Part shown: positions 8,966 to 55,600 of the stretch, piece by piece | Layout: each line of letters opens with the position of its first letter | Numbering within the stretch: the stretch's first letter is position 1 | From: Leucoraja erinacea | Taxonomy: Eukaryota | Length of the DNA: 64,000 nucleotides | Reading direction: 5' to 3' | Assembly (NCBI RefSeq): GCF_028641065.1 | Contig: NC_073391.1 | Location: 36,456,001 to 36,520,000 of the forward strand | Notes under the pieces: generated by a model | What the model saw: only the letters and a program-made list of their open reading frames with translations | Told to the model about the DNA's origin: nothing | Databases searched by the model: none | Made by a program: the position numbers and the translations under genes

Positions 8966-9972
8966 GTGTCAGGCTGATTTGAATGTTATGATTTAACTTG
9001 ATAGATTTTTTCTTCTGCTACGTAAAGCTCTGCCATTATAAAAAACATGTTAGCCCGAGGCAAGCAAAGCCATTTGAACAAATTTATATTAGTTCTGCTT
9101 TCTCGCCAGTAACAAATTATTCAAAGGCTCAACTATTCATATGTTTGAATTTGAGGTTTGGTGTTTTATTTTCATGGATTTCGTGGTTCTCGTCACCAAA
9201 ACTATTTGTGTACAGATTCAATGTAGGTGACTGTGGTGGAAATAGCCGAAAACCAAACAATCATAATGCACGTGATTGTCATTTATAACACATATGAAGA
9301 GACCGGCCCACTACTGTCAATGCTCTAGATGTAGAAACATTTAGATCAGATGTCAGGGGATAGTAAGGCTAATGCCCTGTTGGTTGGAAGAATGGAAAAT
9401 TTCACTCCTGCTCTGAAGATTTTAAGGGCTTTAATAAAATCTAGAAATGCTTTAATCCAGATGTGAACAGAGAGATGTTATTTAAACCAGGTATTAATGA
9501 ATGGACACAAAATGCTGCAATAACTCAGCGGGTCAGGCAGCATCTCTGGAGAAAAAGAGTTGGTGATGTTTCGGGTGGAAACCTTTCTCCAGACTGAGAG
9601 TCAGGGGAGAGGGAAGCAGGAGGTAAGGAATTGGTCCGAATAAATCAGAGCCAGCACTGATGACCAAGGAAAGGTCGAGCCTACAATAGTCCATTGTTGG
9701 TTGTGGAAGAGGTGATAACAAAGGAATACATAGATGCGAACAGTGGAACTGGCAGGATGACTAGGGTAGGGGAGGGAGGGAATGCAGGGGGTACTTGAAA
9801 TTAGAGAAATCAAATTTGATACTGCTTGGTTGTGAATTGCCCAACCAAAATATGAGGTGCTGTTCCTCCAATTTGCAAGTGACCTTACTCCAATCTAACA
9901 GCAGGCCTGCCAACATTGGGTGAGAGTTGGGAGTGAGAAATTGCGAGAGACCAAGCTTGAGAGAGCGTAGCA

Positions 9973-10020
<48 letters not shown>
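9973..10020. repeat. G48 homopolymer
   Basis: Directly visible; lies inside the left end of the hAT element. Confidence 0.95.
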
Positions 10021-10021
<1 letters not shown>

Positions 10022-12647
10022 TAAGGGGAAGGAGTGGGAGGGGGGGGAGGTGTGGGAGGGGGTTTCCCCCCTCCCATTGGTACAAAGCTTTTGCATTTTT
10101 CAGCTTGAAATTGTGCAATCTGGTTCATACTTTAGCGAGTCTTTCAATTTACACTTGAATGCAATATTTATGCTTTAAATTGGATTAGCTATGAATAAGG
10201 TTAGGTTAAATTGTATTCCTAATTACATTCCACAGTAGAGCCAGGCTCTGATCAACAGGTGCAGCACATGAATGATCTTAGTATATTCATGTATGGAAAT
10301 CAGATTATAATCAAATACTTGGCCCATGTTGACCAACCTCGGTCTCACTGCACACCTGGTACTACTCCTGATCCTGGCTCCAGTTGCATACCTTCTCTCA
10401 TTCATGACCCTGAGTCCAGCCTTACACATGGCCCCTATTCTACCCTGATCATACCTGATTACCTGCTTAAGTTCCCAGTGCTGAACACTCCTATTGTCCC
10501 AGCTTTGACTGCACACCTAGTATTATTCCAGACCTTGACTCTGGATGCACACTTGGCCTTGCTCCTAGCCCCTCTACACTGACAATATATCTGACCCCCT
10601 GGACTTAACCTATTACATTCAAGTCCACAGGTGCTTATCTAATCTTTATGCTAATCTTTTATGGGGCACTTCAGACCAAATTTTGTATAACAACATTTGC
10701 TACATCCATTGGCTTCATTGTTATCTAACATGCTAGCTACTTTGTCAAATTAGTCATCAATCGATGAACACAATTTCTCATCCAGAAAATTATACCCACT
10801 CAGCTGTATAATAATTCTGTTACCATTTCCTTCATTTTCCTAACAAACTGTCCTGAAGTCCCAATATTTTCAGCATTTTGCTGTCTTCCTCTCAGCTGGG
10901 ACTTTTCCGAAATGCAAAGTCCAATAAGTATATATTTAAGCAATATTATTCTATTAAATGTGACCTTGAGAGTACATAATATTTTCTGTGGTATTTATGA
11001 TAAAAATATATTTGTTTTGATTGGACCTACCAACATGAATACATTATTATATTACAGTTAATATGTACTGAGGGCAAATTTGTGTTCCAATGCTCCCCAT
11101 TCCCAATTACTTTTACATTGAAGTGATTGAAATCCAAGTGAAGTTTAAATGTCAGAAAAATAAAACCTCCGGAATGGATGATATTCATTCCATGGTTGGT
11201 TGGAGTCAGTATCAGCACAATTACTATATTAAACTTTGAATCTTCAGATGTCCTGGTTAAAGCTAAAATAAAGACAAATAATAATCTTCTCACACATTTC
11301 CCTGCAAGTATCTCTATCACTCCTTTAAAATATGCCCCTTCTATGAACAAGCTCTTAAACATCGCATCTGAATCAGTTTCCATCTGATTACACTCCTTGA
11401 AGATGTTCATCTGGGTGTACAATTAATAACACAATGAGATTGGGGACATTTCTATTCAACCTGTCAAAGGAATTGGGGGGGTGGGTTTAGAAATAGTCAG
11501 TGAGGTAAACAATCATAATAGTTGAGTGGCAAATGACAATAGTGCTACCTTCCCAATATTTAACTGAAGGAAATAATGGGTTATCAGGGCTGTATGATGT
11601 GACAGACGCCTTGCATGTGATTTTAATATTACACTTATCCCATCCCCCTGGATATTCCGTATTAATAAATTAAGGTTTTGTCAACTAATTACAAATCAAT
11701 AACATTAGCCAACTCTGAAACACGAAGCGCTGAGCATTGGGATCCAGACATCACGGACAACTGGCCTCAGTTCCCCGCTCACGTTTGGCAGTGCTCTCTG
11801 TCTGAACCAGGGGCCATGGAGCATTTTTGAAAGTGGGGAGACTGACGATCACTGATCACTGGCCTTGGGGGTACCCGGTGAGGGAGTGGAGCAACCAAGT
11901 AGCGGGAGGGTGTGGGAGGGCGATGTCCCCCTCCCACGCTAGGGTCTTTTAAAATTTGATGTATTAAAAGCATGTTTTATTGCATTGTAGAAGTACGATT
12001 TCAATTGTTTTTGTTTGAAGTATTTTTAAGAGGTAATTTTTTAAGGAGAAACTTTTTCGACACAAAGGGTGGTGGGTATATGGAACAAGCTGCCAGAGGA
12101 GGTAGTTGAGGCAGGGACTATCCCAACATTTAAGAAACAGTTAGACTGATACATGGATAGGACAGGTTTGGAGGGATATGGACCAAAAGCAGGTAGTGTA
12201 GCTGGGACATGTTGGCGGGTGTGGGCAAGTTGCGCCGAAGGGCCTGTTTTCACACTGTATCACTCTATGACTACATTATACCTCCACCATGCATGTACCT
12301 CTTTCCTGTTTTTCCCCCATATCCCTTGATTTCCCTGGCACCAAGAGCTAAATGTAACTCTCTCTTGAAAACATCCAGTGAATTGGCCTCCACTGCCTTC
12401 TGTGGCAGAGAATTCCACAGATTCACAACTCTCTGCATGAAGAAAGTTTGTCCTCATCTCAGTCCTAACTGGCCGACCCTTTATTCTTCAACTGTGACCC
12501 CTGGTTCTGAACTTCCCCAACATCGGGAACATTTTTCCCGCAGTTACACTAAGTGAATATCTAGCAGGCAAGCAGTATGCTTTCTCCAACCACCCCCATG
12601 TGAAGGCCACTATCTTCCACTGTTTCTACCCAGTGCTTGGTTCTTAC

Positions 12648-12887
12648 TTCCAGCAGCCACTGGTTGTTCTCCAGGATGCACCGAATCGCGGCCTGATCCA
12701 TGCCGGTCACCTGGGCGAATTTGGCACAGAGACTCAAGGCAGTGGAGCAACGCTTCAGACGGCCCGGTACTCTTGCACAGAGGCTGCTCCATGGCCGGAG
12801 CTGCAGCGAGCGACTTGCCAGCCCACCAAACACTCGCCAGCCCCGGCTCCCCGTCCACATCTGTCCCCACCACTGTTTCGCTTCCAT
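12648..12887 (-). pseudogene. Captured first-exon fragment encoding a TDP2-like N-terminal UBA-like domain
   Basis: Open 80-codon ATG-started frame ending LCAKFAQVTGMDQAAIRCILENNQWLLE|gtaaga. It matches the recalled TDP2 pattern LCxxFAxxTxxDxAxxxCxLxxNxWxxE and ends at a consensus phase-0 donor; GC/CpG-rich. Confidence 0.6.
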
Positions 12888-13146
12888 CCCTCCCGCGGCC
12901 CATGCAGTTTTGAAATTTTCGTTGCACAGAATTTCTCACGACAGAGCGTGAGAAATTTGTGATCAGCGTGAGAGCGTAAGAGTGTGAGAATTTGGCAAAA
13001 TGCGTCATTCTAACGCTCAATGCGTGAGAGTTGGCAGCACTCTAATAGTGGAGAAGGCCTAGGACAGAAAGGTCACGATGGGAGTGGGAACTGGAGTTAA
13101 AATGTTTGTCAACTCGGAGATATCATCGGCCAAGGCGCAATGGACA

Positions 13147-14215
13147 TCGCTTATTATAGCTGTGAGGAATAGGCTACTAAATCTCTAAATGAATGGGCTG
13201 TAGCGGCGCCTGCTGGCGTACGCAGAGATCGAACCCGGCGTTCAGAAGCCGCGGTCACGTGACTCGGGAGGGGCCGCTTGTTTCGCGCGGTTTTTACTTG
13301 CACGCGTTAGTTCAGCGCTGACCACCGTTGTGGCCAGACGTGTCTGAAGAACCTGTATACTGGAAGTCGAACTTTTGAATAAAGATCTATTGAAAACTCC
13401 AGTAGTCGTTTCTCAGACCACTAAAGGGCGCACTTTAATCCAGTATAAAGGAATGCAGTTTTAATCCAGCTGTGATTCCATAGAAACATTTGAATGCAAT
13501 TGTAAGGATTATGCAGTTTAATCCTGATGTGAATGGATCCAAAGGTGTTAAAACAGCTGTAAGAAATGTAAAGGAATGTGATATTCGTTCATCTGTACAT
13601 GAGTCAGGTTTTAAAACTGCAAGGATTGATACAGTTTAAATCCAGTTCTGGGTGAAGATGAGGGTTTTAATCAGGTTGCAAGGAACAAAGATTTATTTCA
13701 GGCATGTAAAGTGGGCTTCAATCGGCTGGGAAAATGGGAGAATGTTTTAACCCTGTATGAAGGAAGTGGATTTTAATCTAGCTGTGAAGTTAAGAGGATA
13801 GTTGAATCCACAAATGGATGCCCTTGTTCATACAAGTGAATATGATGCTTTTCATACATCTTTGTGATGGGACCTCAAACCATATGTATTATCTGAAGGC
13901 GATAATAAAACCACATGATGAGGTTTTAATCTATCTGTGATATTGAAAGATATTTATCCAGTTGTCTGGCATGGCTTTTATCCATCTGATGACTTTAGTA
14001 AGAAGTGGTACCATTGCGAATCGGGACGATTTAACTGTGAGTTTATCAGAATGTATTAACTGTGAGCAAAGCTGTGAAATTATCAAGTTTTCATCTGAGT
14101 ATGGCGATTGAGAGCTATTAATCCAGTTGTAGTTTAGCAAGTTTTATTCTGGTTCTGAGGCTATCAGAAGATATTAATCCAGCTGTTTGATGGGTCTTTT
14201 AAACCATCTGTGAGG
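13147..14215 (+). repeat. Degenerate ~25-30-bp-period tandem array, core TTTTAATCCAGCTGTGA (two further units at 9451-9496)
   Basis: Core variants at ~13434, 13459, 13517, 13547, 13635, 13665, 13745, 13771, 13924, 13953, 13976, 14117, 14173, 14197 and others, with divergent linkers. Confidence 0.7.
13199..13425 (+). mobile_element. Solo LTR (227 bp), probably Gypsy-type
   Basis: TGTAGCGG...GACCACTAAA termini (TG...CA with one substitution), 4-bp TSD GGGC (13195-98 / 13426-29), AATAAA at 13378-83, CpG-rich. Confidence 0.8.
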
Positions 14216-14524
14216 TTATTGAGTTATCATCCAAGAATGTTTGAGACCTCCTGAATATGAATTATACATTTATCTTCACATCTGGTGCCACCGCTACAAT
14301 TCATCTGCACTCCCTGCCGATGACTCCATGATGCCGATTTCTCTGCACTCTTTCTATTAATATTGCCTCTGCTGTCTGAACTGCTGATCTCCTCCTATGC
14401 CACCATGTTAATTTCTCTTCAACCCACTCTCATGCCAACTTGCTCCCTCATAACGTCCCAATGGTTTCCCTGGCACCAATCTCCCCACCTTGTTCCCCAT
14501 TCATCTATCTGGTTCCCCATTCTA

Positions 14525-22000: not shown

Positions 22001-23195
22001 AAGTCTTCCCATCTCACTTTTAAAGCCATTCAGACACCCCTTTACTTGCAAATAGCATCTCCCAGTCAGTTCCAGTTCCTGTATGATGACATGAAAATTA
22101 GCCTTGCCTTAAATTAAGGCTTTAACTTGAGGACTGGTCATAGCTTTTTCCATGACTACCTTGAAACTAATAGAATTATGGTCATTGGTTGTAAAGTGAT
22201 CTCTAACTGACCCTTCAGTGACCAGCCTCATTTCCTGATGGCCACTTTTCTGGTAGGTCTCTTACCCAGAGTGGAGGAATCAAGAATCGGAGTGCATAGG
22301 TTCTCCGAAGGGGAATTTTTTTTATAGGAATGTGAGAGGCAACTTTTTCAAAGGATGGTGGAGAGATGCATGGAACGGGCTGGTGGAGGGATGCATGGAA
22401 CGGGCTGGTGGAGGTTGCAGTTGAGGCAGGGGCTATCACAACATTTAAGAAGCCATTAGACAGGTACTTGGATAGGACAGGTTTAGGAGGGGTCCTTTGT
22501 GCATCTACCTGATCTATTCCTCTCATGATTTTATACACCTCTACAAGATCACCCCTCATCCTCCTGCGCTCCAGGGAATAGAGTCTCAGCCTACTCAACC
22601 TCTCCCTATAGCTCAGGCCCTCTGGTCCTCGCAACATCCTCGATTGTTGTTCTGTACAGTCGTAGTGAATGCATTTGACAGTCAGTTCAGGCAGCATCTT
22701 AAGGTACCTCACTTTACAATGGGTGGTGGCCTCCACAGAATAATACAACCAGCCATAAATAACCTAATTCACTTCCTCACACCAGCTTTCTTCCAATCAT
22801 CTTGTGCTTCTTCAAAAGTTCAGTGATTCTGTTACTAATTCAATGTCTGCATGCTTGCATGCATTTGACAGGTCTGCAGCTATCTGGCTTTTCTCCTCTT
22901 AATTAGTATCGCAAAGGGTGTGGCCAGCTATCACAATGTTAAGATTGTAGCCAGTCTTTGTCATGTTTTGAGGCAAGCCAGCAGCAATGGAAATACTAAG
23001 TCTTCCAGACTTTCTTTCCATCCGATAATCTCTGTTTTGTTCTCCGTGAATGGAAAGCAGACTGTTTGACAAGCATGACAGGAATACGATTTAAACATGA
23101 ACAAAGTGGAAGTGTTATGAATAAGGGATAGGCCATTTAGGACTGAGTTGAAGGCAGTGGAGGCCAATTCACTGGATGTTTTCAAGAGAGAGTTA

Positions 23196-30083: not shown

Positions 30084-33000
30084 TATTTTTTTTAAATTTT
30101 TTTTTATTTTATTAGAAGTACAGTCATATGGCACCAAAGTGCCTAATATATATTTTCATAATATATTTTATGTACAACTTATTATTTTTTTTTTTGTTAC
30201 ATTGAAAAAAGATTAGAATAAGAAAATGAAGTTAGATAGTAAAGGATAGAAAGATGTGAAATATATAGTGTGTGAAGAAAGAAAACGAGTAAATGAAGAA
30301 AGTTGAGAGAGAAAATAGAGAAAAGAAAATAAAATAAAAAAGTAAAGGAGATCATTATTTATAATTTGACCAACCCTCGTCCAGTCCTGAAACAGTTATT
30401 TTTTACAATTGTGTTGCACCATATGATTCCAAAAAAAACGACGAATGGAGACCAACTCGTTATGAATTGGTCTGATTTATCCATTAGGAGGAATCGCATT
30501 TCCTCAAGATGAGCGGTGTCCAACATACTTGCAATCCACATTTTAAGCGTTGGTATTGATGTACCCTTCCAAAATTTAAGTATTCATTTTTTTGCTACAG
30601 GTGCACAACCTTTTATCCGAAAGCCTTGGGACCAGACACTTGTCGGATTTCGGACATTTTCGGATTTCATAATGGAAGATTTTTAGCGTAGATTAGGTAG
30701 GTAGCGCGGGCGGCTTGACTGGAGCAGCTGCCTCCTCCCCGAAGACTGTGAGAATCATTGCATAAATGTTAGTCAGTTAGTTTGGAGGGATTTTATGTGG
30801 TGGTGGTGGAGTAGGGGTGAAGGGGGAAACTTTAATTCTTAGTCCCCTACCTGGTCGGCGACTCCCAACCTCGCGGAGCTGGGGGCTCCGTCCGGCCGCG
30901 GGCGGCGCCGGTTGGAGCTCCGACCCCGGCAACTCTACCCCTGGCTGCGCGGCTCCAAATCCAGCGACGCTCCGCGAATGTTGGAAGAAGGCGGCCACAG
31001 CGCTCCGGAGCTTGCCGCACGGCGACCCGGTAAGGCATTGCCCGCTTCCCGCTGGTATCCCAGCGCTACGACGCCGCCGACTCCTAACATTGGGCGGGCG
31101 TCCGGTCGCGGGCGGCACTGGATTTGGAGCGCCTCGCAGCCAGGGGTAGAGTTGCCGGGGTCGGAGCTACAACCGGCGCCGCCCGCAGCCCCACTGGCCA
31201 CAGCGCTGCGGAGCTTACTGCACGGCGACCCGGTAAGGCATTGACCGCTCCCCGCCTCTCCGACCAGGTAGGGGATTAAGAATTAAAGTTTACCCCTTCA
31301 CATAAAAGCCCTCCAAACTAACTGACTAACATTTAAGCAATGATTTACAGATGTTTAAGCGTCTCCCCGGTCTCCGGGGAGGAGGCAGCCGCTACAGTAG
31401 TACAGACCTGGGTTGACCGTGGGTCGTTTTGGGTCAAGTTTGGCGCCAAACGCGAGCTTTGGTGCGCAGACGCCATCTGGAAAAAATGGCCGGTTTTCGG
31501 AGTTTTTTTTCGGTTTCCGGAACACCGGATAAAAGGTTGTGCACCTGTATTATTAAACCATAGTTAAGGAATAGATTTTGAGATGTGTTCAATTTATTCC
31601 CATCTTCCATTACGCCAAATATAATCATTTCAGAATTAGGTTCCATTCTTGTCTTGAATAATTTTGTAAATATTTCAAAAATATAATTCCAAAATCTATA
31701 AAGTTTTATGCAGGAAACTAAGGAGTGTGTTATAGTTGCCTTTTGGGCTAGACATTTATCACAAGTGGCGGATATATTTGGATAAAATTTGTTCAATCTT
31801 GTTTTTGAATAATATAATCTATGTACAATTTTAAATTGAATTAGATTATGTCTTACATTAATTGAACATTTGTGAATATATATCAAGTATTTTTCCCATT
31901 TAACCGTCGTAATTTTTATCATTAGATCCCGTTCCCACTCTTCTCTAAGTACCTCTGTTGATGGTAGGCCTATATTTAGAATACTATTATATAAATATGA
32001 TATTAATTTTTGTGAGTCAGCTTCAATATTCATTGCTTCTTCCAATAAGTCAGGAGTTACTTTTTGATATCCTTGTATATATTTTTTCATGAAATCGCAA
32101 ATCTGAAGATATTTAAAATATTGGTTGTTTTTCAATTTAAATTTTAATTGTAATTGTTGGAATGATAGTAGGTTTCCCATTTCGTACATATCCCCGATCC
32201 TTCTAATTCCGATACTTTCCCATTGGTTATATGTCTTATCAATAAGAGATGGTTTAAATAAAGGGTTATTCGCTATTGGCATTAACAGTGATGGATTTCT
32301 TAATTTTAAAGATAATTTTATTTGTTTCCAAATTCTTATTGTACCATATATAATTGGGTTCTTCTTATATATTGTGTTATTCAGTTTTTTTGAGGAGAAG
32401 AGGATCGTTCCTATATTACAAGGATGGCAACCCTCCTTCTCCATTTTTATCCATTCTGTCTGTTGGGTAGAACTATCCAACCAATAAATCATATTCTTAA
32501 TATGCACTGCCCAGTAATAATACATAAAATTCGGAAGTGAAAGTCCCCTGACCTCTTTTGGTTTACATAAGTGTTTTTTTTTTGTGATTCTATGTGATCT
32601 ATAGTCCCAAATATAATTAGTAATATCAGAATCTAATTTTTTTTTAAATATTTTGGTATATAGACTGAAATAGGTATAGTAATTGTGGTAGGAAGATCAT
32701 TTTTATTGCATTTATTCTACCTAATAATAAGGGAAGTGTTTTCCAAATTTAATCAGCGTATTAAGTTTATTTAATAAAGGTATGAAATTAGCGTTGAATA
32801 ATGCTTTATATTTTCTAGTAATCTGAATACCCAAATATTTAAAATTTTCTGTTGCGATTTTAAAGGGGAACTTCAATAAGTGTGTAGGTTCTTGAGGTTT
32901 TAATGTCATGATTTCACTTTTATTCCAGTTTATTCTATATCCAGAAAATGACCCAAATTCCTCTATTAAATTTAATAAATTTGGTATGCTCGTTTGTGAC

Positions 33001-34672
33001 TTTGTAATATATAAAAGTATATTGTCTGCATATAATGAGATTTTATTCTTTGAGTCCCTGGTATTATAGCCCTGAATATTTGGATGAATTCTTATACTTT
33101 CAGCCAGGGGTTCTATCATAAGGGCAAATAGCAGGGGTGATAGTGCACATCCCTGCCTATTACCCCTTGATAGTTGACATTTTTGAGATAACATGGTATT
33201 AGTTAAAATTCTTGCCATCGGTTTATCATATAATAATTTTACCCATGTTATAAAATTCTCTCCCATATTAAATTTTTGTAGTACTTTATATAAGTATTGC
33301 CACTCTACCTGATCAAATGCTTTCTCTGCATCCAAAGAAATAATTGATATATCTTCTTCCTCTACTTTATGCGAGTACATTATATTAAACAGGCGTCTCA
33401 GATTATTAAATGAGTATCTTTTGGGTATAAACCCCGTTTGATCAGGGTTTATCAATTTACTAATATATTTGCTTAATCTTCTTGCTAAAATCTTTGCTAA
33501 AATTTTCTGATCTGTATTTAAAAGTGATATAGCTCTGTACGAGCCCGGATCTTCTAAATCTTTATCTTTTTTTTGGAATAAGCGTAATAGTTGATTCTGT
33601 TAGTGTTTCAGGTAGTTTGGTTTCTTTAAAAGCATGGGAGTATAAATTAAATAAATAAGGGGTCGTTATCTCATGAAATTTTTTATAAAATTCATTATTA
33701 AAACCATCTGGTCCCGGTGTCTTACCATTTTTCAGCGATTTTATTGTTTCACCTATTTCTTTGATTGTAATTTGAGCTCCTAGTTCATCTTGTTCCAAAA
33801 GGTCCAGTATTGGAAGATTACAGTTATCTAGAATTTTTTTTATTTTACTATCTTCTATTTTAATTTTAGATGTATATAAGTTTTGGTAAAATTGGGCAAA
33901 TCTATTATTAATATCTTTAGGTAGTATTAGTAATTCACCTTTCTTTGATTTAATTTTGGTTATAGTATTTTCCTTTTCTTGTTTTTTCAATTGGCGAGCT
34001 AAAAGCTTATGTGGTTTGTCACCAAACTCAAAATGTTCCTGTTTTGTAATTTGGAATAGTCTTATTACTCTTGCCGATAGACTTCGATTAAGTTTAAATT
34101 TCACTAATATTATCTTATTGTGTTTATCTGTCGTGGAATCTTTGGCATTATCCAACTCTAACTGCCTGATTTCTTGTTCTAACAACAATTGTTCTGTCTT
34201 ATTCTTTTTATTTTGAAAACTTTGATATGAAATTATAATTCCTCTCATAAATGCCTTAAAAGTTTCCCATAATAAAGAAGGCAAAGTACCTGGTATATCA
34301 TTTGTATCGAAAAAAAGTTTAATTTGGTGTTTTAAATATTGATAGCCTTGCACATCATTTAAAACATGTGTATTAAACCTCCAAAAATTTTTTTTACCCG
34401 GCATTCCCTCAAATTTTACTGAAAATGTCAACGGAGAGTGATCTGAGATACTACTAATGTGGTATGCTGGGTTGTTTGTATATGGCATTAATTTCATATC
34501 CACTAAAAAATAATCAATTCTTGAATAAGTTTTATGTACCGAAGAGTAAAACGAGTATTCCCTTCCAACTGGATTAGCAGATCTCCATACATCTATTATA
34601 TTAGTATTTTTTATATATGTATTTAGAAGTTCGCTAGTCTTAGATTTTAAATTACTCTTCTTTTGTTTCTTT
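30084..34672 (-). mobile_element. 5'-truncated L1-clade LINE (ORF2 from late endonuclease through RT to C-terminal Cys/His motif), frameshifted and interrupted by a MITE
   Basis: ORFs 33562-34503 (ISDHSP, GKTPGPDGF), 32721-33455 (DAEKAFDQVEW, RQGCALSPLLF, YADNILL) and 31434-32525 (CDKC..THSLVSC); C-terminal remnant at 30359-30596; poly(A) tail seen as a T-rich run at ~30081-30113. Confidence 0.93.
30598..31547. mobile_element. Tc1/mariner-type MITE (950 bp) inserted into L1 ORF2
   Basis: TIRs CAGGTGCACAACCTTTTATCCG / CGGATAAAAGGTTGTGCACCTG, TA TSDs at 30596-97 and 31548-49, long internal inverted segments; the L1 reading frame resumes on the far side. Confidence 0.93.
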
Positions 34673-37600
34673 GTATTTTCTTTATAAAGCTTATTGTAGA
34701 TTTGACGGGACGAATGGCCTGATTCTGCCTCTAACTTATGAACTTAAATGCTCCACATGCAGAAAAACAGTATTATTGTTCTATCGAAGTAATAGAGTTA
34801 TAGAGTATCACAGACAGCATGGAAACAGTCCCTTGGCCTAACTCTCCCATCCCAATCATGATGCCCTGTCTGAGCCTGTCCCATTTGCCTATGTTTGGCC
34901 CATATCCATCTAACTGCTTCCTCTCCATGTACCTGTTGAAGCATCTTTTAAACTGTTGTAGTGTCTGCCTCAACCAACTCCTCCGGCAGCTTATTCCATT
35001 TACGTACCACCCTCTGAATGAACATTTATCCCACAGGTTCCTATTCAAACTTGCCCCTCTCACCTTAAACCTATGTGCACTGGTTCTTGATTCCCTTACC
35101 CTGGGTAAAAGGGTGGCGCAGTGGTGCAGCGGCAGATTTCGTTGTCTCTGTACTGTACACTGACAATGACAATTAAAGTTGAATCTGAATCTGAATCTGA
35201 GATTTGCTGCCTTACAGCGCCAGAGACCCGGGTTCAATCCTGACTGCAGGCGCTGTCTATACAGAGCTTGTACGTTCTCTCGGTGACCTACATGGGTTTT
35301 CTCCGGGATCTCCAGGATCTCCGATTTCCTCCCACACTCAAGACGTACAGGTGTGTCGGCTGATTGGCTTTGTACAATTGTAAATTGTTCCTGGTGTGTG
35401 TAGGATAGTGTTCGTGTGCGGGGATCGCTGGTCGGCGTGGACTCGATGGGCCGAAGGGTCTGTTTCAGCCCTGCATCTCTAAACGAAACTAAAAAACTGA
35501 ACTCTGCGCATTCACCCTATCTATTCCTCTCATGATCTTAAACACCTCCATAAGATTACCCATTAGCCTCCTGCGCTCCAGTATTTGAAAGCTCACTGGC
35601 AAATAGAATGATATTAGGAGGGAGTTACTGATCCAACACTGCACAGAAATTAAAAAAAACATGCATTTGGTGGAAATCCGAAATAAAAACAGAAAATGCT
35701 GTGAACAGTCAGAAGGCCAGGCAGCATCCATGGAAAGAGAAAGAGCATTTTAGATCAGACACTATTGGTCAATGATCCAGTTGAGTTTTTCTGCCCAGCT
35801 TCCATGAAACTGAAATTGAACGTTTGCATTCTAAGTCACAGTGATCATTATGCACGTCCTTTTGATTGTGTTCAAAAAGGAAGTGTTGGTGTATGGGGGC
35901 TCCAGCCTCCATTCTCCTGCACGCCAACTCTGTGCGCATAACAGTCATGCTTAGTCATAAAAACCAACAGTATCTTAGTTACCTATACAACAAAGTACTG
36001 GAGAGATGACTCTATAAAACTGATGGAGCACAATTGGCAAAGGCAACAGCGCACTGTTAATTAAGAGTCTCGCTCTCTCTGTGAACAAGGCTTTGTGTGA
36101 TAGATTTTTCTTTGCATTAGCCTGCCAGAATTTAAAATACCTTCCTCGCGTCTTTAATTATTTCTCCTTAGTTTATCGATCCTGTTCCACATACTGTGTA
36201 AAGCCATTCATATGTGCCATTACCCCTTTGTTAGACAGGACTTCACAAATGATTAAACTCTCAGTTTTCACAAACAAGTACACGTTGCTTTAATAGTTCC
36301 GTTTGCAGACACTTTGTTTTGACATCGTGTTTTGTGCATTTAGATTTGTTAACCGTCAGGTCTTGCTTGAGATGTAGTCTGCGACGTACCCTGCTTTTAC
36401 TTCCTCACCCCCCCGCCCCCCCTCCATTCACCGCCAAAGCTTCAGTTGAAATCGGTACGAAGGAGCTGCAGATGCTGGTTTAACAAATATTAACAAAATG
36501 CTGGGGTAACTCAGCTGGACAGGCAGCTCTGGAGAGAAGGAATGGATGACGTTTTGGGTCGAGACCCTGCAGCTGAAACCAATGGGCTTCGGGAAGGAAG
36601 GTTCTTTCTCCGTTTCCCAGCCCTTCTCGTTGGTCGTGGGCGACGTGGAACAACCCCAACCCCTGTTCTCCACTTCCACCCTGGTGAGGCTTCGAACACG
36701 CATTTAAAGTGTGGGGTGGAAGGGTGGTTAAGCCGGAGGAGAGTTGGTGAATAGGAATAGATCAGTTTGTTGAATAGAGAGGGCGGAGGAGGGAGCAAAT
36801 GTCTGGAGTGAGGCGGGGCGGACAAAAAAAAAGTTGGAGGACCTCGTAGTGTGAGTTACTCTCATTGCCAGAGGAGAGGGGGTGGCAGCGCTGTCACTGT
36901 TTACAGGCGGCCTCTGGCAAGGCGCGGAGTTACGCCCCCCCCCCGCCTCAACGCACAACCCATTTCGCAAACCTGAAACCTTGCCGCTTAAGAACCTCGT
37001 ATACATGTACCAAGAATTACAACGCACAAGTCCTGCCACTGACAAGGGTATTTCATACAGGTGTCCCCATGTCTTCACGTCCTCGCAACATTTTACAATA
37101 ATAGAGAGATGTTAAATCCATGGGGACTATTCAATCTGCACACAATGCGAACTATTCTATGCAAAATTGAATTCACCTTCAATCCAAATAAATCTGAATT
37201 TACGTTCAATCGACATAAAGTCAAACTTACGTTGACTGGTCTTGCAAAATACCATACTATTATAAAACAGTCAAACTATGTAAAGCGAAGGAAGCGGGTA
37301 GGAGGAGGGGGGCGGGATCTGATTAGCTTTTGGAATCAGGCGTCGGAATGAAGCAATTACAATCTCCGGGTGATAATCTATGATTCTTAAAAGTGAGTGG
37401 CTTCAGAGCCACAAGCTTTGTCACTTTTGATATTTTTCTCAGCTAATGTCAAACAGTACAGTATACCCCATTCTCAGCACCCTTGGCTGCTTGAAATAAT
37501 TCGCGACAACACACGGCCACATCACACAGTCGACATCGTGTATTATGGATTAAACAAAAAGCTAATAATGCTTCAGATACTTCAGTTGCGACAACGCGGC

Positions 37601-39333: not shown

Positions 39334-41960
<2,627 letters not shown>

Positions 41961-45946: not shown

Positions 45947-47306
45947 CAGTAACTATTCAGACCCTTTGCTATGACACTCAAAATTGAGCTTAGGTTCATC
46001 CTGTTTCCTTTGATTATTCTTGAGATGTTTCTATAACTTGATTGGAGTCCACCAGTGGTAAATTAAATTGATTGGACATGATTTGGAAAGGCACACACCT
46101 GTCTATATAAGGTCCCACAGTTGACAGTGCATGTCTGATCAAAAACCAAGCAATGAAGATGAAAGAAATGTCCGTAGACTTCCGAGACAGGATTGTGTCG
46201 AGACACAGATCTGGGGAAAGGTATAAAACAATTTCTGCAGCATTGCAGGTCCCGAAAAGCACAGTGGCCTCTGTCATTCTTAAATGGAAGAACTTTGGAA
46301 CCACCAGGACACTTCATAGAGCTGGCCACCTGGCCAAACTGAGCAATTGGGGGAGAAGGGCCTTGGTCAGGGAGGTGACCAAGAACCTGATGGTCACTCT
46401 GACAGAGCTCCAGAGTTCATCTGTGGAAATGGGAGAACCTTCCGGAAGGACAACTATATCTGCAGCACTCCCCCAATCAGGCCGGACGGAAGCCACTCCT
46501 CAGTAAAAGGCACATGACAGCCCGCTTGGAGTTTGCCAAAAGGCATGAGAAACAAGATTCTCTGGTCTGATGAAACCAAGATTGAACTCTTTGGCCTGAA
46601 TGCCAAGCGTCACGTCCGGAGGAAACCAGGCACGGGTCATCACCTGGCCAATACCATACCTACTGTGAAGCATGGTGATGGCAGCATCATGCTGTGGGGA
46701 TGTTTTTCAGCAGAAGGAACTGGGAGGCTAGTAAGATTGAGGGAAAGATGAACAGAGCAAAGTACAGAGAGATCCTTGATGAAAACCTGCTCCAGAGCAT
46801 TCTGGACCTCAGACTGTGGCAGAGGTTCACCTTCCAACAGGACAACGACCCTAAGCACACAGCCAAGACAACACAGGAGTGGCTTTGTGACAAATCTGTG
46901 AATGCCCTTGAGTGACCCAGCCAGAGCCTGGACTTGAACCCGATCAAACATCTCTGGAAAATAGGCTGTGCATTGACGTTCCCGATTCAACCTGACAGAG
47001 CTTGAGAGGATCTGCAGAGAGGAATGGGAGAAATTACCCAAATACAGGTGTGCCAAGCTTGTAGCGTCATACCCAAGAAGACTTGAGGCTGTAATCGCTG
47101 CCAAAGGTGCCTCAACAAAGTACTGAGTAAAGGGTCTGAGTGTGCTATTTCAGTTATGTCTTTTTAATTACTTTGCAAACATTTCTAAACCTCATACTTG
47201 TTTTCATTTTTTTATTATGGGGTATTGTAATCAATTTTAGAATAAGGCTGTAACGTAACAAAATGTTGAAAAAGTGAAGGGGTCTGAATACTTTCTGAAT
47301 GCAATG
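45947..47306 (+). mobile_element. Tc1-family (DD34E, IR/DR type) DNA transposon, defective
   Basis: Right TIR ...aaaagtgaaggggtctgaatactttctgaatgcaatg|TA. The left end TA|CAGT jumps straight to the inner direct repeat (tattcagaccctttgctatgacactc). Transposase remnants lie inside. Confidence 0.93.
46153..47126 (+). pseudogene. Tc1 transposase pseudogene
   Basis: Paired-like HTH (RDRIVSRHRSG..YKTISAAL.VPKSTV), WSDETKIELFG, TVKHGDGSIMLWGCF, FQQDNDPKH and DLNPIKHLW (catalytic E mutated to K); frameshifts, small deletions and a stop. Confidence 0.92.
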
Positions 47307-49639: not shown

Positions 49640-52600
49640 AAGTAAAATACATTGATCTTTTAAAATAAAATCATTAACTAAACCAAAATAAAAATATTAA
49701 ATTAAAGGTAAGTACTTTGCACCCCCCCCCCCCCCATCTCCCCAGATCTTGCTACAGGATTCAGAAGCATATTGCATTAATTATTTAATAAGTTCATTGG
49801 CCAAGTATGTACACATACAAGGAATTTGCGTTGGTGCTCCGCTCGCAAGTATCAACACGACATGGAATAAACCATTTAGAATAAAACATAAAACATTAAA
49901 ACATTAAGAATAAAACATTATAGTTTAAACAATAATTAAATATTATAGTTTAAAACATTACAGTTTTGCAAGGTGATCTTATTGATTCCGTACTCCAAAT
50001 CTGACAGGTGGGACTATGTCTTTGACAGCACATGCCGGCAGGTCCCAGACTTACTACTAATTAAATAGCTAAACATCAGCACTTCTATTTGGAACCACCA
50101 CCATTAGCAAGCAAGTATCATGTAGTTATTAATAATCTGCGACATACCTTGATTTTAAGTTGTGAGGATTTATTTTGTGTAAAGCACGTTAATGGCAGAG
50201 AGAAGTGGAACAAACTCTTCCCCCAACTTGTCATATTTCTTGTGAAGTGAGATAATAATACAATAGGGTTCCTCTCCATGATGGGAGATTGTGTCTGTCT
50301 GCTGTGTTATCATGACAATCACCTGCACATTTTGTTCAATCTGAAAAGGCTACACAGTCCCTGTTTCTTTTGCAATCGCCCAGTAGTTTGTGCAAGTGAG
50401 CTTGCAGTGGGCACAAGAGAACAATTGATTTAATAATTAACTGCTGGACCACATAAAACATAATTGGGTCCTTCCTTGTCAATTCGGTTTACTTTTCCAC
50501 GATCAACATGGATGGAAAAGACACCTTCCAACTTCAGTACCTCAATCCTAAATTGTCTCGGGTTTCAGCAAGAGGAAATTGATGGTCTCCAATAACATTG
50601 CAGCCTCAGCCTTCCCCCAGCCCAAAAGGCAACGTTTAGTTTAGTTTAGTTTAGAGATACAGCGCAGAAACAGGCCCTTCAGCCCACCATCCGCTCCGTC
50701 CAGCGATCCCCGCACATTAACATTATCCTACACGCACTAGGGCCAATTTTAGATTTGTACCAAGCCAATTAACCTACAAGTCAGTACGCCTTTGGAGTGT
50801 GGGAGGAAAACGAAGATCATGGTGAAAACCCATGCCGTCACGGGGAGAACATACAAATTCCATAGAGACAGCACCCGTAGACGGGATCGAACCTGGGTCT
50901 CTGGCTTTGTAAGTGCTGCAAAGCATCAACTCTCCCGCTGCGCCACCGTGCCACATGTTCCAACAATTCTTCCCTACCCAAGAACTGAATTCAGCAACTT
51001 TCACTAGTTCCTTCCCTTGTGTCCTCTCCAAGTTCTGCTTGTCTAACATTCTTGACAACGCTTCTTCCCCTTTCCTCTATACTCACCTACAGCGGATTTT
51101 TATCCACCAAATCTAAGCCAATTTTCCCTACAAAATCGTATTTGAATTATTTTAACCAGATATTAATCATCCCTGCCATATTATTGAAACCCTCCTTAGC
51201 AGTAGCTTACCAAGGGCTTTCCAGCACCACCTCTCCTAACCTACGATCTTCAGTACTTAGAACACAAGGCAGCAGATGAATGTAATGCCACAATTCACAA
51301 CTTCTACCCCTTCACATTGTGAACTTGATGATATGTCACCCTTTGTCCATTGGCACCAACAAAAAGTGCTGGATCTACCTAAAAATAGCAGGACCTTGAA
51401 GGGAGAAGACTCGCTGCACTCTTCTCAAGTGCAGGTGAGGATGAGTGTAAAATGTTGGCCTTGTTATCGATACTTGCATCATGCCTGAAAATGCAAGAAG
51501 CCACAAGTGACAAGCTGCATGATTGGGACGGTGATCCATTATCACTCTTCACCTCCGTGACCTGAATAAAGTCTTTGAAATAATTGGCCTTGCTTCCTCT
51601 CTCTAGTTCCTCTTTATTACCCACCAGTTTCACATCAACCACCTCAAGTTGGCATTAGAAAATAAACTGCAATGGTTTATTTTTCCATTCCTCGGTGTTC
51701 AATCTGACATTTGCAAAGATTCATTCTTGCTCCCTATGACTCATCATTTAAAAGCAGTCTTCATTGAAAAACATGCCGTGATTCCAGAGTAATGCTGAGA
51801 CCGTTGGCCCAACAAACTCACACTGCCTTTGATTCAACATTAACTTTCCAACAGCCAATGCTCGATGATCAGAAGTTTTCTTTGACTGAATCTTGGGAGG
51901 ACCAAAACATTTTGCCTTTGGTCCCCATCACAAACTTTGTTCCTTAGACTGTAACTGATATTTTAACCCAGAATTATTGCAGTGGAATATATTTGTGTGT
52001 AGGTATGTACAGGCAATCGCCAAAACCGTCTCAATAGTGCCAGAGACAGGAGGAAGGCTGCAGCCCTAAATCCTCCCTACAGCGGCCACATGATCCCCCC
52101 ACATCGGACTCATGAGTCGCACTCGATCCCATAAGACATGAGACTGCACAACCATGCTATCGACATCTACGACGAGCCACCACCATGTACAGTTATATAT
52201 TTGTATCCAATATCTGTATACGAGCAGGGTTGTTTATGTTTGACAGTGTATATACTTTTGCATGGTTTGTGCACATTTCTGTTTCTTTGTGTGTAGGAAG
52301 GAACTGCAGATGCTGGTTTCGACCGAAGATAGACACAAAAAGCTGGAGTAATGGCTTTTTGGGACAGAGGGAATGGGTGGCATTTCGGGTCAAGACCCTC
52401 ATGAATGATGTCAGGGGAGAGGGAGATACACAGATAAGGAAGCGTAAGGTGTGAAAATAGGACAAAGGGAATGGTCATCAAGAACAATGTAGAATAGATC
52501 ATTATTAGCTGGGAGAAGATACCAACAACAAAGCAAACAGAGATGTAATGTAGTCAGGGACAGTGAGACTGGCCGGAGAACTGGGAAGGGGAGGGATGGA

Positions 52601-55600
52601 GAGAGAGAGGAAAAGCAAGGGTTACGAAGTTAGAGAAGTCAATGTTAATACTGCTGGGGTGTAAGCAAAATGCAGTATTGGTGCTGTTCCCCCAATTTGC
52701 GCTGGGCCTCACTCTGACAATGGAGGAGGTCCAGGGCAGAAAGGTCAGTGTGGGAATGGGAGTGGGAGTTAGTGTTTAGCAACCGGGAGATCAGATAGAT
52801 TTAGGCGGACTGAGCGGAGGTGTTCAGCGAAACGATCTCCAACCCAGCGCTTATGTGGACGTATTATTGGCCGAACCTCGCACATCTCCATGCGTTGTTC
52901 CATTGTTTCTTCAATCTCTCCTGTCCAGCATTCTATCACAGTTCTTCCCTGGTATTCTCTCTCCCCCAAAACCTATACTGGATTAAAAAAAATGTTTTTG
53001 CTTTATCTTTCACTGGCTCCAATGAAATGTCATTGAAACATTTCTCTCTCCAGACTCTGCCAGCCCTGTTTGAATATTTCTAACATTTTTAACATTTATA
53101 TTTCATTTGTTTGCTTGCATTTATGCATGTTTGTCGGAGCACCAGTTTTGAAATTTTGACATTGCCAAGAGAATGGCTGTAGATTTTCTTTGGAGAAAAA
53201 TGCAATGTAAAATGGAGACTAGTAAATAATAAATACCAAATATATAAATAGGCTTACCTTATCTTCCCACCTTCTAGAAAAATCTAATAATATAGGGAAA
53301 TAATTTTCAGAGACCTAAGATTGGGAATACATGTTGGAGTTAAGTCTGAGCTGTGGTTAAACTGCTTTTAATTGAACACATGTTTCAGGGAAATTATACA
53401 TTCCACAGGGTGGCACGGTGGCGCAGTGGTAGAGTTGCTGCCTTACAGTTCTTGCAGCACTGGAGACCCGGGTTCGATCCCGACTACGGGTGCTGTCTGT
53501 ACGGAGTTTGTACGTTCTCCCAGTTTTTCTCAGATCTTCGGTCTCCTCACACACTCCAAAGACGCAAAGGTTTGTAGGTTCATTGGCTTGATACAAGTTT
53601 AAATTGTCCCTAGTGTGTGTAGGATAGTGTCAGTGTGCAGGGATCACTGGTCGGTGGGTCGAAGGGCCTGTTTCCGCGCTGTGTCTCTAAACTAAACTAG
53701 ACTACTCCTTTGAACATTACTACCATGCCTGGTGAAGTTAACAAAAACATTTCCAAAATGGTGAAAGGAACATGAAGCCACCCTTATTGCAGATTCTGAA
53801 GGTGAATCAGCACAGCTGATGAAGATTAGTAAATGCAATGCTGAGTCATGAAAGATGGTCCCCGACCAGTCTGTGGTCAGTGCCAGAGAAACAAGCACCA
53901 CACAGAACAATCAATGAAGGCAGTTTTATTCACCTCAGGATCCCTGGGCGACGATAGAAAAATTGCCTTTCTACTCCAATGAGTTATCCAGCAATGAGTA
54001 TAGAGGGAAGTCTGAAACATAGAAACATAGAAAATAGGTGCAGGAGTAGGCCATTCGGCCCTTTGAGCCTGCACTGCCATTCAATATGATCATGACTGAT
54101 CATCCAACTCAGTATCCTGTACCTGCCTTCTCTTCATACCCCCTGATCCCTTTAGCCACAAGGGCCACATCTAACTCCCTCTTAAATACAGCAAGGGTCT
54201 CGAACCGAAACTTCACCCATTTCATCTCTCCAGATATGCTGCCTGTCCCGCTGAGTTACTGCAGCATATTGTGTCTATCTTCAGTTATAGAGGTGAAGAT
54301 CTGGGCCACTGCTGTAAATCCAGATAACCATGGCGTGAATCAATACTTTGGTACTTGTTACTAAGTTCAAAGGCAATTTTCTGGACTGCTAATGTGATGT
54401 AGAACCCAAGAGAGTGTAAGTCAATGTTTACAGATGTGTGAACTTTGGAGTCTAATATACATACCCTTACACGTACAAAATGTTCTTTCTTGTCTTTCTT
54501 TATTATTTATACTAATCTGGATTTGTAGTTCAGTTATGTGACTGGAAAAGAAATGCAGGATGTCGTCAGCTAGGCATCTCATCCCTTTGTGCAGGTGATT
54601 AGCTTGGTATCAGAGATTCATTTTCTGACCCAGGCATGTGTGGGCAGTGTAAAGCCAGTGAGACATCTTTCACCGTCTCTCATAGATTGCTGATCACACC
54701 AGCTGATCCCTATGGATTGAAGGTCAAGTATACAAATTCTTCAGCTTTTCATTATAACGTGGAAAGTAATGTATTTGGTTCTGGATCATTTACATTCTTT
54801 GGTCTCCCATCTCAGTTGAGTTTGATTTGCTTTCTGACAGTGTACTACATGAAAGGGAAGATGGAAGGCCTGGAGAATGTATGAATTAATACCAAGCTGC
54901 TTGTCTCTTGAAAATCCTAACATGTAAATTGAGTCTTTGGGCAAAATGTGCGCATTGAACATCAGAGCAGGAAAAAGCCACCATTGTCTCCCCAAGGCAA
55001 TGACAAATTATAAATGTTGCCATTGTAACAACATAAGCAGATCTAATTATTAAAGAGTTCTGATTGAACTTTCTGATGAACCATCTCATTTGAAGTCAGC
55101 TCTTTAATTGCCAAAGATATTGTGTACAATGTTGTGAGAAAATAATTGTGTGCGATTGGTGGTTATTGTTATGAATACACAAATCTACCCTGTGAATTAT
55201 GAATGGCAGCGCACTTAACTTGCAATGTCTTAGTTTTTGTGCAAATGGCATCTTCTGCATCAGTTTCTAGTGACTTTTGTGAAGTTACTGCACTAGGACA
55301 TTACTTGTCCTTTAAATTACCTGAGAAAGTTAAGGCTGGTAAATTAATAACCAGTCGCTAGAAATGTTCTTGCTCCGGAACTAAACAATTCAAAAATGTT
55401 GAATTATTTCTGAAATTTAAAAGCAGGGAATTTAAAATAAATTTATGTTCTGACTTTCCTTCTTGGTTCTCTCTTCATTCAGCTGGCTTGACAATGAATT
55501 CACAAATTCTAATCAACGTTCTTCTCATTGCTTACCCTGTTTATTTTTCATTCTTTTGATCTCAGTTTAGTGTGACACGGATCATAAAATTCAGTAATGT

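What the first reader, a model, noticed from the sequence alone, without database searches (positions are those of the whole stretch)
9902..13040. hAT 'Pack' element carrying a captured TDP2-like UBA exon with its intron
Seen: TIRs, an 8-bp TSD and subterminal GTGAGA repeats delimit a 3.1-kb element with no transposase. Near the right end, a CpG-rich minus-strand frame (12887-12648, 80 codons, open) ends LCAKFAQVTGMDQAAIRCILENNQWLLE and is followed by a consensus donor GAA|GTAAGA and intron-like DNA. Known: vertebrate TDP2 begins with a UBA-like domain (LCxxFAxxxxxDxAVAQCxLAENDWEME) and, as I recall, its first intron falls at the equivalent position. Inference: this is DNA-level (unspliced) capture of a host first exon by a TIR transposon, as in Pack-MULE/Pack-TIR elements, which are rarely documented in vertebrates. 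The element could disperse an ATG+UBA+donor cassette. Here it is co-oriented with LRRTM3 inside the presumptive long-isoform intron. The motif is diverged from canonical TDP2, so the donor may be a TDP2 paralogue or another UBA_4 protein.
Basis: partly seen in the sequence, partly recalled or inferred. Interest (0 to 1): 0.75.

Follow-up and report, generated by a model that had tools for sequence, protein, structure and literature searches.

The report
Transposon spreading a TDP2-like first exon
A 3.1-kb mobile DNA element here carries a broken copy of what is likely the first exon of the DNA-repair gene TDP2, and the same exon recurs in many other copies beside the same element end, likely spread by cut-and-paste transposition as a decaying passenger, probably far more widely than in published animal cases.

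Summary
The element is real. Removing 9902-13040 and one 8-bp duplicate (7/8 match) rejoins an older repeat. The cargo is real too: a UBA-like exon whose best solved-structure match is TDP2, ending at a splice donor. The cassette is a high-copy repeat in two DNA runs (87-97 distinct contigs at one exon position). Other copies keep an open ATG-to-UBA frame and a fully consensus donor, and some join the exon to the same subterminal repeats. This copy decays neutrally (10 of 12 listed changes non-synonymous; 76% expected). Not shown: the parent gene (no full-length protein found), a transposase (hAT is inferred from ends and the 8-bp duplication), and any splicing. Pack-TIRs are known in vertebrates (370, of which 208 hAT), but only four are multicopy, so the scale is the unusual part. 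The scan found this family before on other DNA, five times (two notes in this genome, three in others).

The parts
9740..9901 (.). Left half of an older interspersed repeat split by the insertion; 9894-9901 is the left target-site duplicate
   Evidence: uninterrupted form in 131 contigs of X1 (table 7)
9902..9914 (+). Left TIR, 12/13 to the family end
   Evidence: family end
9915..10200 (+). Left subterminal region: two GTGAGA, a 48-nt G run (9973-10020), a GC hairpin (10044-10076)
10200..11807 (.). Internal DNA of unknown origin: degenerate C/T-rich repeats (about 10340-10620) and an AT-rich block (10620-11700, GC 0.34); no Pfam hit for the 131-codon frame 11030-11422
11808..12045 (+). Possible left end of a second, nested element (12-mer at 11808-11819; hairpin 11904-11936, 82% like 10044-10076)
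   Evidence: no target duplication found, so unproven
12046..12275 (+). 3' fragment of a LINE (CR1-like; label recalled from its translation), several paralogues in the window
12295..12542 (-). Second LINE fragment (CR1-like, recalled); its junction with the intron is shared by other copies
   Evidence: X1 record 1 spans 12515-12659; same upstream letters in 15 contigs of X2 and one each of X18, X19, X20
12543..12647 (-). Start of the captured intron: donor GTAAGA here, GTAAGT in nearly all other copies; read-through frame stops at 12563
   Evidence: (position 12642)
12648..12887 (-). TDP2-like coding exon 1: ATG 12887, second ATG in Kozak context at 12792, UBA part 12734-12648 cut off before the last helix; frameshifts near 12880 (-1) and 12735 (-2) in this copy
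12893..12904 (-). Possible right end of the nested element (9/12 to 11808-11819; 11/12 if CpG decay is allowed), 5 nt upstream of the ATG in this copy
   Evidence: about 0.1 expected by chance in the element; three other 9/12 sites exist
12905..13029 (-). Right subterminal region with five GTGAGA/TCTCAC and a hairpin at about 12926-12965
   Evidence: joined to the exon in other copies
13030..13040 (-). Right TIR, eroded in its last 4 nt
13041..13121 (.). Right target-site duplicate (13041-13048) and right half of the split older repeat

Best explanation
This is a decayed copy of a high-copy repeat with terminal inverted repeats and an 8-bp target duplication, likely a non-autonomous hAT-type transposon, that carries an ATG-UBA-splice-donor cassette likely captured from TDP2 exon 1 and likely spread by a transposase supplied from elsewhere. 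Shown: the ends, the duplication, the split older repeat, the UBA homology, the many copies, their join to the same subterminal repeats, the frameshifts here. Inferred: one DNA-level capture (template switch or gap filling during repair of an element, as proposed for multicopy Pack-TIRs) took about 240-250 nt of exon and at least 105 nt of intron with a LINE piece, but little or no promoter. A transposase binding the 13-bp TIRs and the GTGAGA repeats then moved the founder, possibly after the cargo had entered inside a smaller nested element (11808-12904). Copies since then likely drift without selection. This copy, on the LRRTM strand about 26 kb downstream of its coding exon, is most likely silent as a coding exon.
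For: Homology: sister copy P0003 passes the UBA_4 cut-off (26.5 bits, E=5.4e-6); its best PDB match is the TDP2 UBA (E=5.4e-5, 15 of 32 identical), the next UBA protein (p47) E=0.27. All 3 majority amino-acid changes in the UBA move towards TDP2 (two new identities, one conservative), and donor +6 becomes consensus in 184,264 of 184,628 summed depth in X2. Similarity ends at the donor, at position 29-31 of the 43-position profile, as an intron would cause. Copy number: 3,370 contigs of X2 lie on 517 nt; 97 contigs of X1 and 87 of X2 carry the family letter at 12668; summed depth is 1e4-1e5 over the exon against 12.5 at the unique flank 13148-13181 (not a copy number). 72 contigs run on past the right TIR into unlike flanks (agreement 0.42). 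Linkage: 9 joints link the exon or intron side to the subterminal side, and P0005 reads from the subterminal region through the exon. A distant relative with the same TIR has a perfect 8-bp duplication (L008). Decay: 10 of 12 listed exon changes are non-synonymous, neutral expectation 0.76. P0002 vs P0003 identity is 33/44 N-terminal, 23/28 UBA and 21/28 in the intron read-through.
Against: No parent found: no longer protein carrying this exon scored E<=10 (0 of 19 candidates; 0 of 495), and phmmer over 1.84 billion proteins gave only another copy and a low-complexity snail protein; the tools call such blanks weak. No transposase is tied to these ends (0 of 11 metagenome loci), so a P-type or other carrier remains possible. 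Only 2 of the 9 joints have 31 or more letters on the short side. Linkage of the LEFT end to the cargo in other copies was not tested. Of 7 distinct records spanning 12733-12748, 4 have length gains that restore the frame (+11, +11, +11, +17) and 3 do not (+9, +4, +1). The 12 changes are those printed (26 rows not shown), so the decay test is small. The copies retrieved as proteins are selected for open frames.
Confidence: 0.72

Rival explanations
1. The exon is the 5' exon of the autonomous element's own gene (a transposon-borne TDP2-like gene or a UBA-transposase fusion), and these copies are ordinary internal-deletion derivatives that kept the gene's start.
For: The exon starts about 150 nt inside the TIR and reads inward, where a transposon gene would begin. 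No host protein with this exon was retrieved. Identity to the human TDP2 UBA is only 15 of 32.
Against: No longer protein of any kind with this exon was found either. The exon is GC/CpG-rich like a host 5' island (GC 0.63, CpG o/e 0.69). The UBA is no better kept than the intron read-through between two copies (23/28 vs 21/28). Distant relatives with the same TIR carry no such exon (0 of 11 loci).
Confidence: 0.1
2. The cargo is host-derived, but from a TDP2 paralogue or another UBA_4 gene (p47/NSFL1C, UBXN7, DCN1-like), not the TDP2 orthologue.
For: UBA_4 and UBA_8 both hit; p47 appears at E=0.27-1.2; occasional TDP2 duplications are reported (PMC11369425, passages); no parent retrieved.
Against: TDP2 is the top PDB hit for this copy and for both sister copies tested, by about four orders of magnitude for P0003; nematode TDP2 is second for P0002. 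The lead-in of 55-57 residues in three sister copies is longer than the recalled human one, which neither supports nor excludes orthology.
Confidence: 0.1
3. The carrier is not a hAT: a P-type element (also 8-bp duplications), or a smaller inner element or Helitron did the capture and most of the spreading, and the outer TIR element is a later vehicle.
For: No transposase seen. A second element-like end sits at 11808, with a possible partner at 12893-12904. Summed depth peaks higher on the cargo than on the subterminal region (236k vs 147k in X2), though depth is no copy number. Earlier scan notes describe nesting (unchecked).
Against: The inner pair has no target duplication and is only modestly above chance (about 0.1 expected). 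The exon is joined to the outer subterminal repeats in several independent copies. The family end CAGGG fits the hAT terminal consensus (recalled).
Confidence: 0.12
4. The UBA likeness is chance in a GC-rich repeat.
For: This copy scores below the Pfam cut-off, and its language-model search gave no usable hit.
Against: P0003 passes the cut-off; majority letters improve the TDP2 match and the donor; ATG, frame and donor coincide in sister copies.
Confidence: 0.02

Closest known systems
Multicopy animal Pack-TIRs, e.g. Pack-hAT-N8_XT (CAPSL 5' UTR, western clawed frog) and Ssk-FB4 (Drosophila); Tan et al. 2021, PMC8277862 (read: abstract, sections 7, 9, 10, 14; supplements searched by term)
   Same: Non-autonomous TIR element with host 5' gene sequence inside, moved after capture, with different flanks per copy; hAT is the commonest carrier there (208 of 370).
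   Different: Only 4 multicopy cases in 100 genomes, the illustrated one with 3 copies; here at least about 90 distinct contigs and probably hundreds to thousands of copies. The cargo includes a coding exon with ATG and donor, is older (most laid contigs under 95% alike), and its parent is not located. Elephant shark had 0 Pack-TIRs; 'TDP2' and 'skate' occur 0 times in the 12 supplement files.
HelibatN3 (bat Helitron carrying NUBPL promoter, 5' UTR, exon 1 and partial intron 1, about a thousand copies); Thomas et al. 2014, PMC4224331 (passages read)
   Same: Same cargo anatomy (first exon plus partial first intron) amplified to high copy number in a vertebrate; that paper reports 5' captures amplifying more than others.
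   Different: A rolling-circle carrier without TIRs or target duplication, and with the promoter captured; here TIRs, an 8-bp duplication and at most a few tens of nt upstream of the ATG.
TDP2 N-terminal UBA domain (PDB 6q00/6q01; Pfam PF14555)
   Same: Best match of the cargo peptide, 12 of 29 identical here and 15 of 32 in P0003.
   Different: The domain is cut off at the donor before its last helix; no EEP catalytic domain follows; this copy is frameshifted twice.

Membership tests
Pack-TIR (Tan et al. 2021) | Internal sequence of 100-5000 bp flanked by both ends of one TIR element, each with at least 10 bp of the terminus | tested here: met
   3,139 bp; left TIR 12/13; right TIR keeps 9 inner nt and has lost or changed the outer 4, so this is met only loosely at the right end
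Pack-TIR (Tan et al. 2021) | Internal sequence derives from a non-TE host gene | tested here: met
   At protein level: UBA_4 above cut-off and TDP2 best match for P0003
Pack-TIR (Tan et al. 2021) | Unique parental locus at 90% identity or more, without flanking TE | not testable with these tools
   No genome held; protein searches found no parent
Pack-TIR (Tan et al. 2021) | DNA-level capture (intron kept, not a retrocopy) | tested here: met
   Homology stops at a GT donor that is consensus in the family, and non-coding sequence follows in all copies seen; that TDP2 has an intron at this place is recalled
multicopy Pack-TIR | Same chimeric structure at several loci with distinct target duplications | tested here: inconclusive
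   Exon-to-right-end join in several copies and 72 unlike flanks; paired duplications of other cargo-bearing copies and the left end were not seen
hAT superfamily | 8-bp target-site duplication | tested here: met
   7/8 here; 8/8 in distant relative L008; one other end pair in L009 matched only 5/8
hAT superfamily | Short TIRs with subterminal repeats | tested here: met
   13-bp TIR; GTGAGA clusters at both ends; the terminal consensus is recalled, and a literature search for the TIR gave only primer-like hits in the 20 papers listed of 102
hAT superfamily | hAT transposase between cognate TIRs | tested here: inconclusive
   None in the element; no transposase-like frame recognised by eye in 11 metagenome loci (not scanned against Pfam)
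TDP2 orthologue exon 1 | Splices to exons encoding the rest of the UBA and the EEP domain, at the syntenic locus | not testable with these tools
   No genome held and no parent protein retrieved
Helitron | No TIRs, no target duplication, 5' TC and 3' CTRR ends | tested here: not met
   TIRs and an 8-bp duplication bound the element

The most novel reading that the evidence does not exclude
The family is a mobile start-codon + UBA + strong-donor cassette, and at some of its hundreds to thousands of insertion sites it has been spliced onto downstream host exons, giving lineage-specific 5' exons or UBA-tagged fusion proteins: exon shuffling at scale by a cut-and-paste element in a vertebrate.
Probability: 0.15. 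Interest if true: 0.8.

Novelty: new variant of a known kind. Interest (0 to 1): 0.5.

Why it matters
Published animal Pack-TIRs are almost all single-copy and mostly made without transposition. A TIR family that moved a coding first exon with its donor to hundreds or more sites would be the cut-and-paste counterpart of the bat Helitron captures. It would make testable how often such cassettes are exonised and why 5' gene ends amplify well. In practice it will also produce false TDP2-like gene models, or mask the real TDP2 exon 1, in these genomes. This copy itself is broken and probably inert.

Tried and rejected
Whole-genome search: no genome held. Parent protein: 0 of 19 and 0 of 495 longer candidates scored; the near-length search gave only copies P0002-P0004 (3 of 8 candidates). 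P0001 (snail, low-complexity repeats) was dropped as spurious. ESM Atlas: no usable hit for this copy; only UBA_4 clusters under 0.9 for P0002. Metagenome and viral contigs: 0 of 596 and 0 of 31 pattern matches encode the exon. A TIR pattern gave 11 loci: one chance phage match, and distant relatives without the exon, several being the same locus. Expression: no RNA holder listed. In three runs only guessed to be RNA (X18, X19, X20; 3, 4 and 7 contigs laid), one contig each reads through the donor into the intron and no joint or loose end at 12648 is listed; contigs cannot show absence, so this is no evidence either way. One X19 contig begins exactly at 12648 and overlaps the intron contig by 30 nt; a splice fork and a variant at 12678 explain this equally. 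A 12-bp inverted match between 11811-11822 and 12786-12797 was rejected as an element end: it lies inside the coding frame and about 0.3 are expected by chance (my estimate). A TIR-like stretch at 11708 lacks the terminal bases. The match of the left end to 41413-41493 is GA/G low complexity. Rfam: 0 matches in 9000-14500. Papers: TDP2 + transposon + captured (7 listed), skate/hAT/gene fragment (8), Leucoraja + captured exon (3) and the first Pack-TIR search (20 of 30 listed) showed no report of this family in their listings. The exon-1 boundary of TDP2 was not found (listing; PMC6628236 passages). PMC3597677 passages have 0 occurrences of TDP2 or UBA. Subscription journals, Repbase/Dfam and bioRxiv supplements were not searchable.
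Full report
Observation. The stretch 9902-13040 behaves as one insertion. It is flanked by TCTAACAG and TCTAATAG (7/8). Taking it out with one of these rejoins an older repeat that aligns to a paralogue near 52530-52810; that join scores 195, against 183 with both 8-mers kept. 131 contigs of DNA run X1 and 16 of X17 show the older repeat uninterrupted. This is a paralogous, not an orthologous, empty site. The left end matches the family terminus at 12 of 13 positions. The right end keeps the inner 9 nt, but 72 contigs of run X2 continue with CCTG where this copy has AC, so the right TIR is eroded. GTGAGA motifs cluster at both ends (2 in 59 nt, 5 in 116 nt; 50 in the whole window). The element encodes no transposase. 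It contains two LINE 3' fragments with paralogues in the window (the CR1 label is recalled).

The cargo. The minus-strand frame 12887-12648 is open and hits UBA_4 at E=0.0014, below the cut-off; its only PDB match is the TDP2 UBA. Searches returned other copies as unnamed predicted proteins, P0002-P0005. P0003 passes the UBA_4 cut-off and matches TDP2 at E=5.4e-5, with p47 next among UBA proteins at 0.27. Three of the four run from the equivalent of ATG 12887 through the UBA to the same stop inside the intron; P0004 ends within the UBA. Of 7 distinct contig records spanning the second site, 4 have gains that restore the frame and 3 do not. The majority letters of other copies move all three changed UBA residues towards TDP2 and make the donor GTAAGT. 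Homology stops at the donor, before the last part of the UBA profile. That TDP2 has its first intron here is recalled; I found no paper for it. Only 5-26 nt or so separate the ATG from element-like sequence, so a promoter was probably not taken.

Copy number and linkage. In two DNA runs from differently labelled organisms the exon and intron start are covered by many distinct contigs: 97 in X1 and 87 in X2 at position 12668, and 3,370 laid on 517 nt in X2. Summed depth over the exon is 1e4-1e5, against 12.5 at a unique flank. The tool warns that summed depth is no copy number; 'hundreds to thousands' is my inference. Seven organism labels hold 35-47% of the words of 10100-13040. Most laid contigs are under 95% alike to this copy (2,263 of 3,370 in X2). 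Nine joints link the exon or intron to the right subterminal repeats, though only 2 have 31 or more letters on the short side; one X20 contig carries intron, exon and subterminal repeat; P0005 reads across the same join. The junction between the intron and the minus-strand LINE piece is shared by other copies, so it predates amplification. Whether other copies share this left end and interior was not tested. A distant relative with the same TIR in a metagenome contig has a perfect 8-bp duplication (L008).

Selection and function. Against the majority letters, 10 of the 12 listed exon changes in this copy are non-synonymous, with 0.76 expected under neutrality; 26 rows of the table were not shown. 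Between P0002 and P0003 the UBA (23/28) is little better kept than the N-terminus (33/44) or the intron read-through (21/28). Both point to passengers. The window holds an LRRTM coding exon on the minus strand at 39337-40902 (that it is LRRTM3 is recalled). It ends in GAG GTA TGA, the alternative donor of the long isoform (role recalled). The cassette is on the same strand about 26 kb downstream. It has no evident acceptor or promoter, so an effect on LRRTM splicing is unsupported.

Mechanism. Most likely, one DNA-level capture by template switching or gap filling put the 5' end of TDP2 into a non-autonomous element. A transposase supplied in trans then copied it, recognising the TIRs and subterminal repeats, and copies have decayed since (confidence 0.72). 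A two-step, nested history is possible: 11808-11819 and 12893-12904 pair at 9/12, or 11/12 with CpG decay (about 0.1 expected), and a hairpin like that of the left end follows 11808, but there is no target duplication. The main gaps are the parent locus and the transposase. The rival that this exon starts the autonomous element's own gene is not excluded (0.1).

Comparison. Tan et al. 2021 (PMC8277862; abstract, sections 7, 9, 10, 14 read, supplements searched by term) list 370 animal Pack-TIRs, 208 of them hAT, and only 4 multicopy, the illustrated one with three copies; elephant shark had none, and TDP2 does not occur in the supplements. HelibatN3 (PMC4224331, passages) has the same cargo anatomy at about a thousand copies but is a Helitron. 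So this works like a multicopy Pack-TIR; strict membership needs the parent, which could not be tested. My paper searches (listings only, except where stated) showed no report of this family; Repbase, Dfam and subscription journals were out of reach.

Earlier notes. This scan has recorded the family five times on other DNA. Those notes call the organism a skate and give 800-900 or thousands of copies; I did not verify the species or those counts. I had reached the high-copy reading before the first look-up. The notes gave me the two papers above (the Tan paper also came from my own search) and the nesting lead.

Verdict. A real, decayed member of a high-copy Pack-type family. A known kind of capture at an unusual scale: new variant of a known kind, interest 0.5.

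Noticed in passing
window 13199-13400: A second high-copy repeat starts about 150 nt right of the element. It is CpG-rich (o/e about 1.1 in 13001-13500) and holds a TCACGTGA E-box-like motif; 110 contigs of X1 have loose ends before 13199 and depth rises to 1e4. It has no other copy in the window. It could be another captured promoter-like piece.
   Followed up: partly
window 13434-13950: Degenerate direct repeats around TTTAATCCAG (families D2, D4, D5, D7).
   Followed up: no
window 39337-40902 (-): Intact 521-codon LRRTM coding exon, ending in ECEV then stop, with an overlapping GT donor; CpG island at about 40500-41500.
   Followed up: partly
window 31437-34743 (-): Near-full LINE ORF2 in three long frames (393, 292 and 420 codons), the middle one with a reverse transcriptase domain (E=1.9e-40), next to a CpG-rich block at 30500-31500.
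   Followed up: partly
window 46111-47149: Tc1/Sleeping Beauty-like transposase remnant (HTH_SB E=1.3e-23).
   Followed up: partly
L007, L008, L009, L011: The same TIR family occurs as short tandemly clustered elements at one locus in several metagenome assemblies of another host; L008 2421-2678 is a 258-nt element with a perfect 8-bp duplication.
   Followed up: partly
window 12355-12400 and 23150-23195: A 46-nt stretch is 100% identical between two LINE fragments that otherwise differ, in inverted orientation; possibly gene conversion or a conserved core.
   Followed up: no
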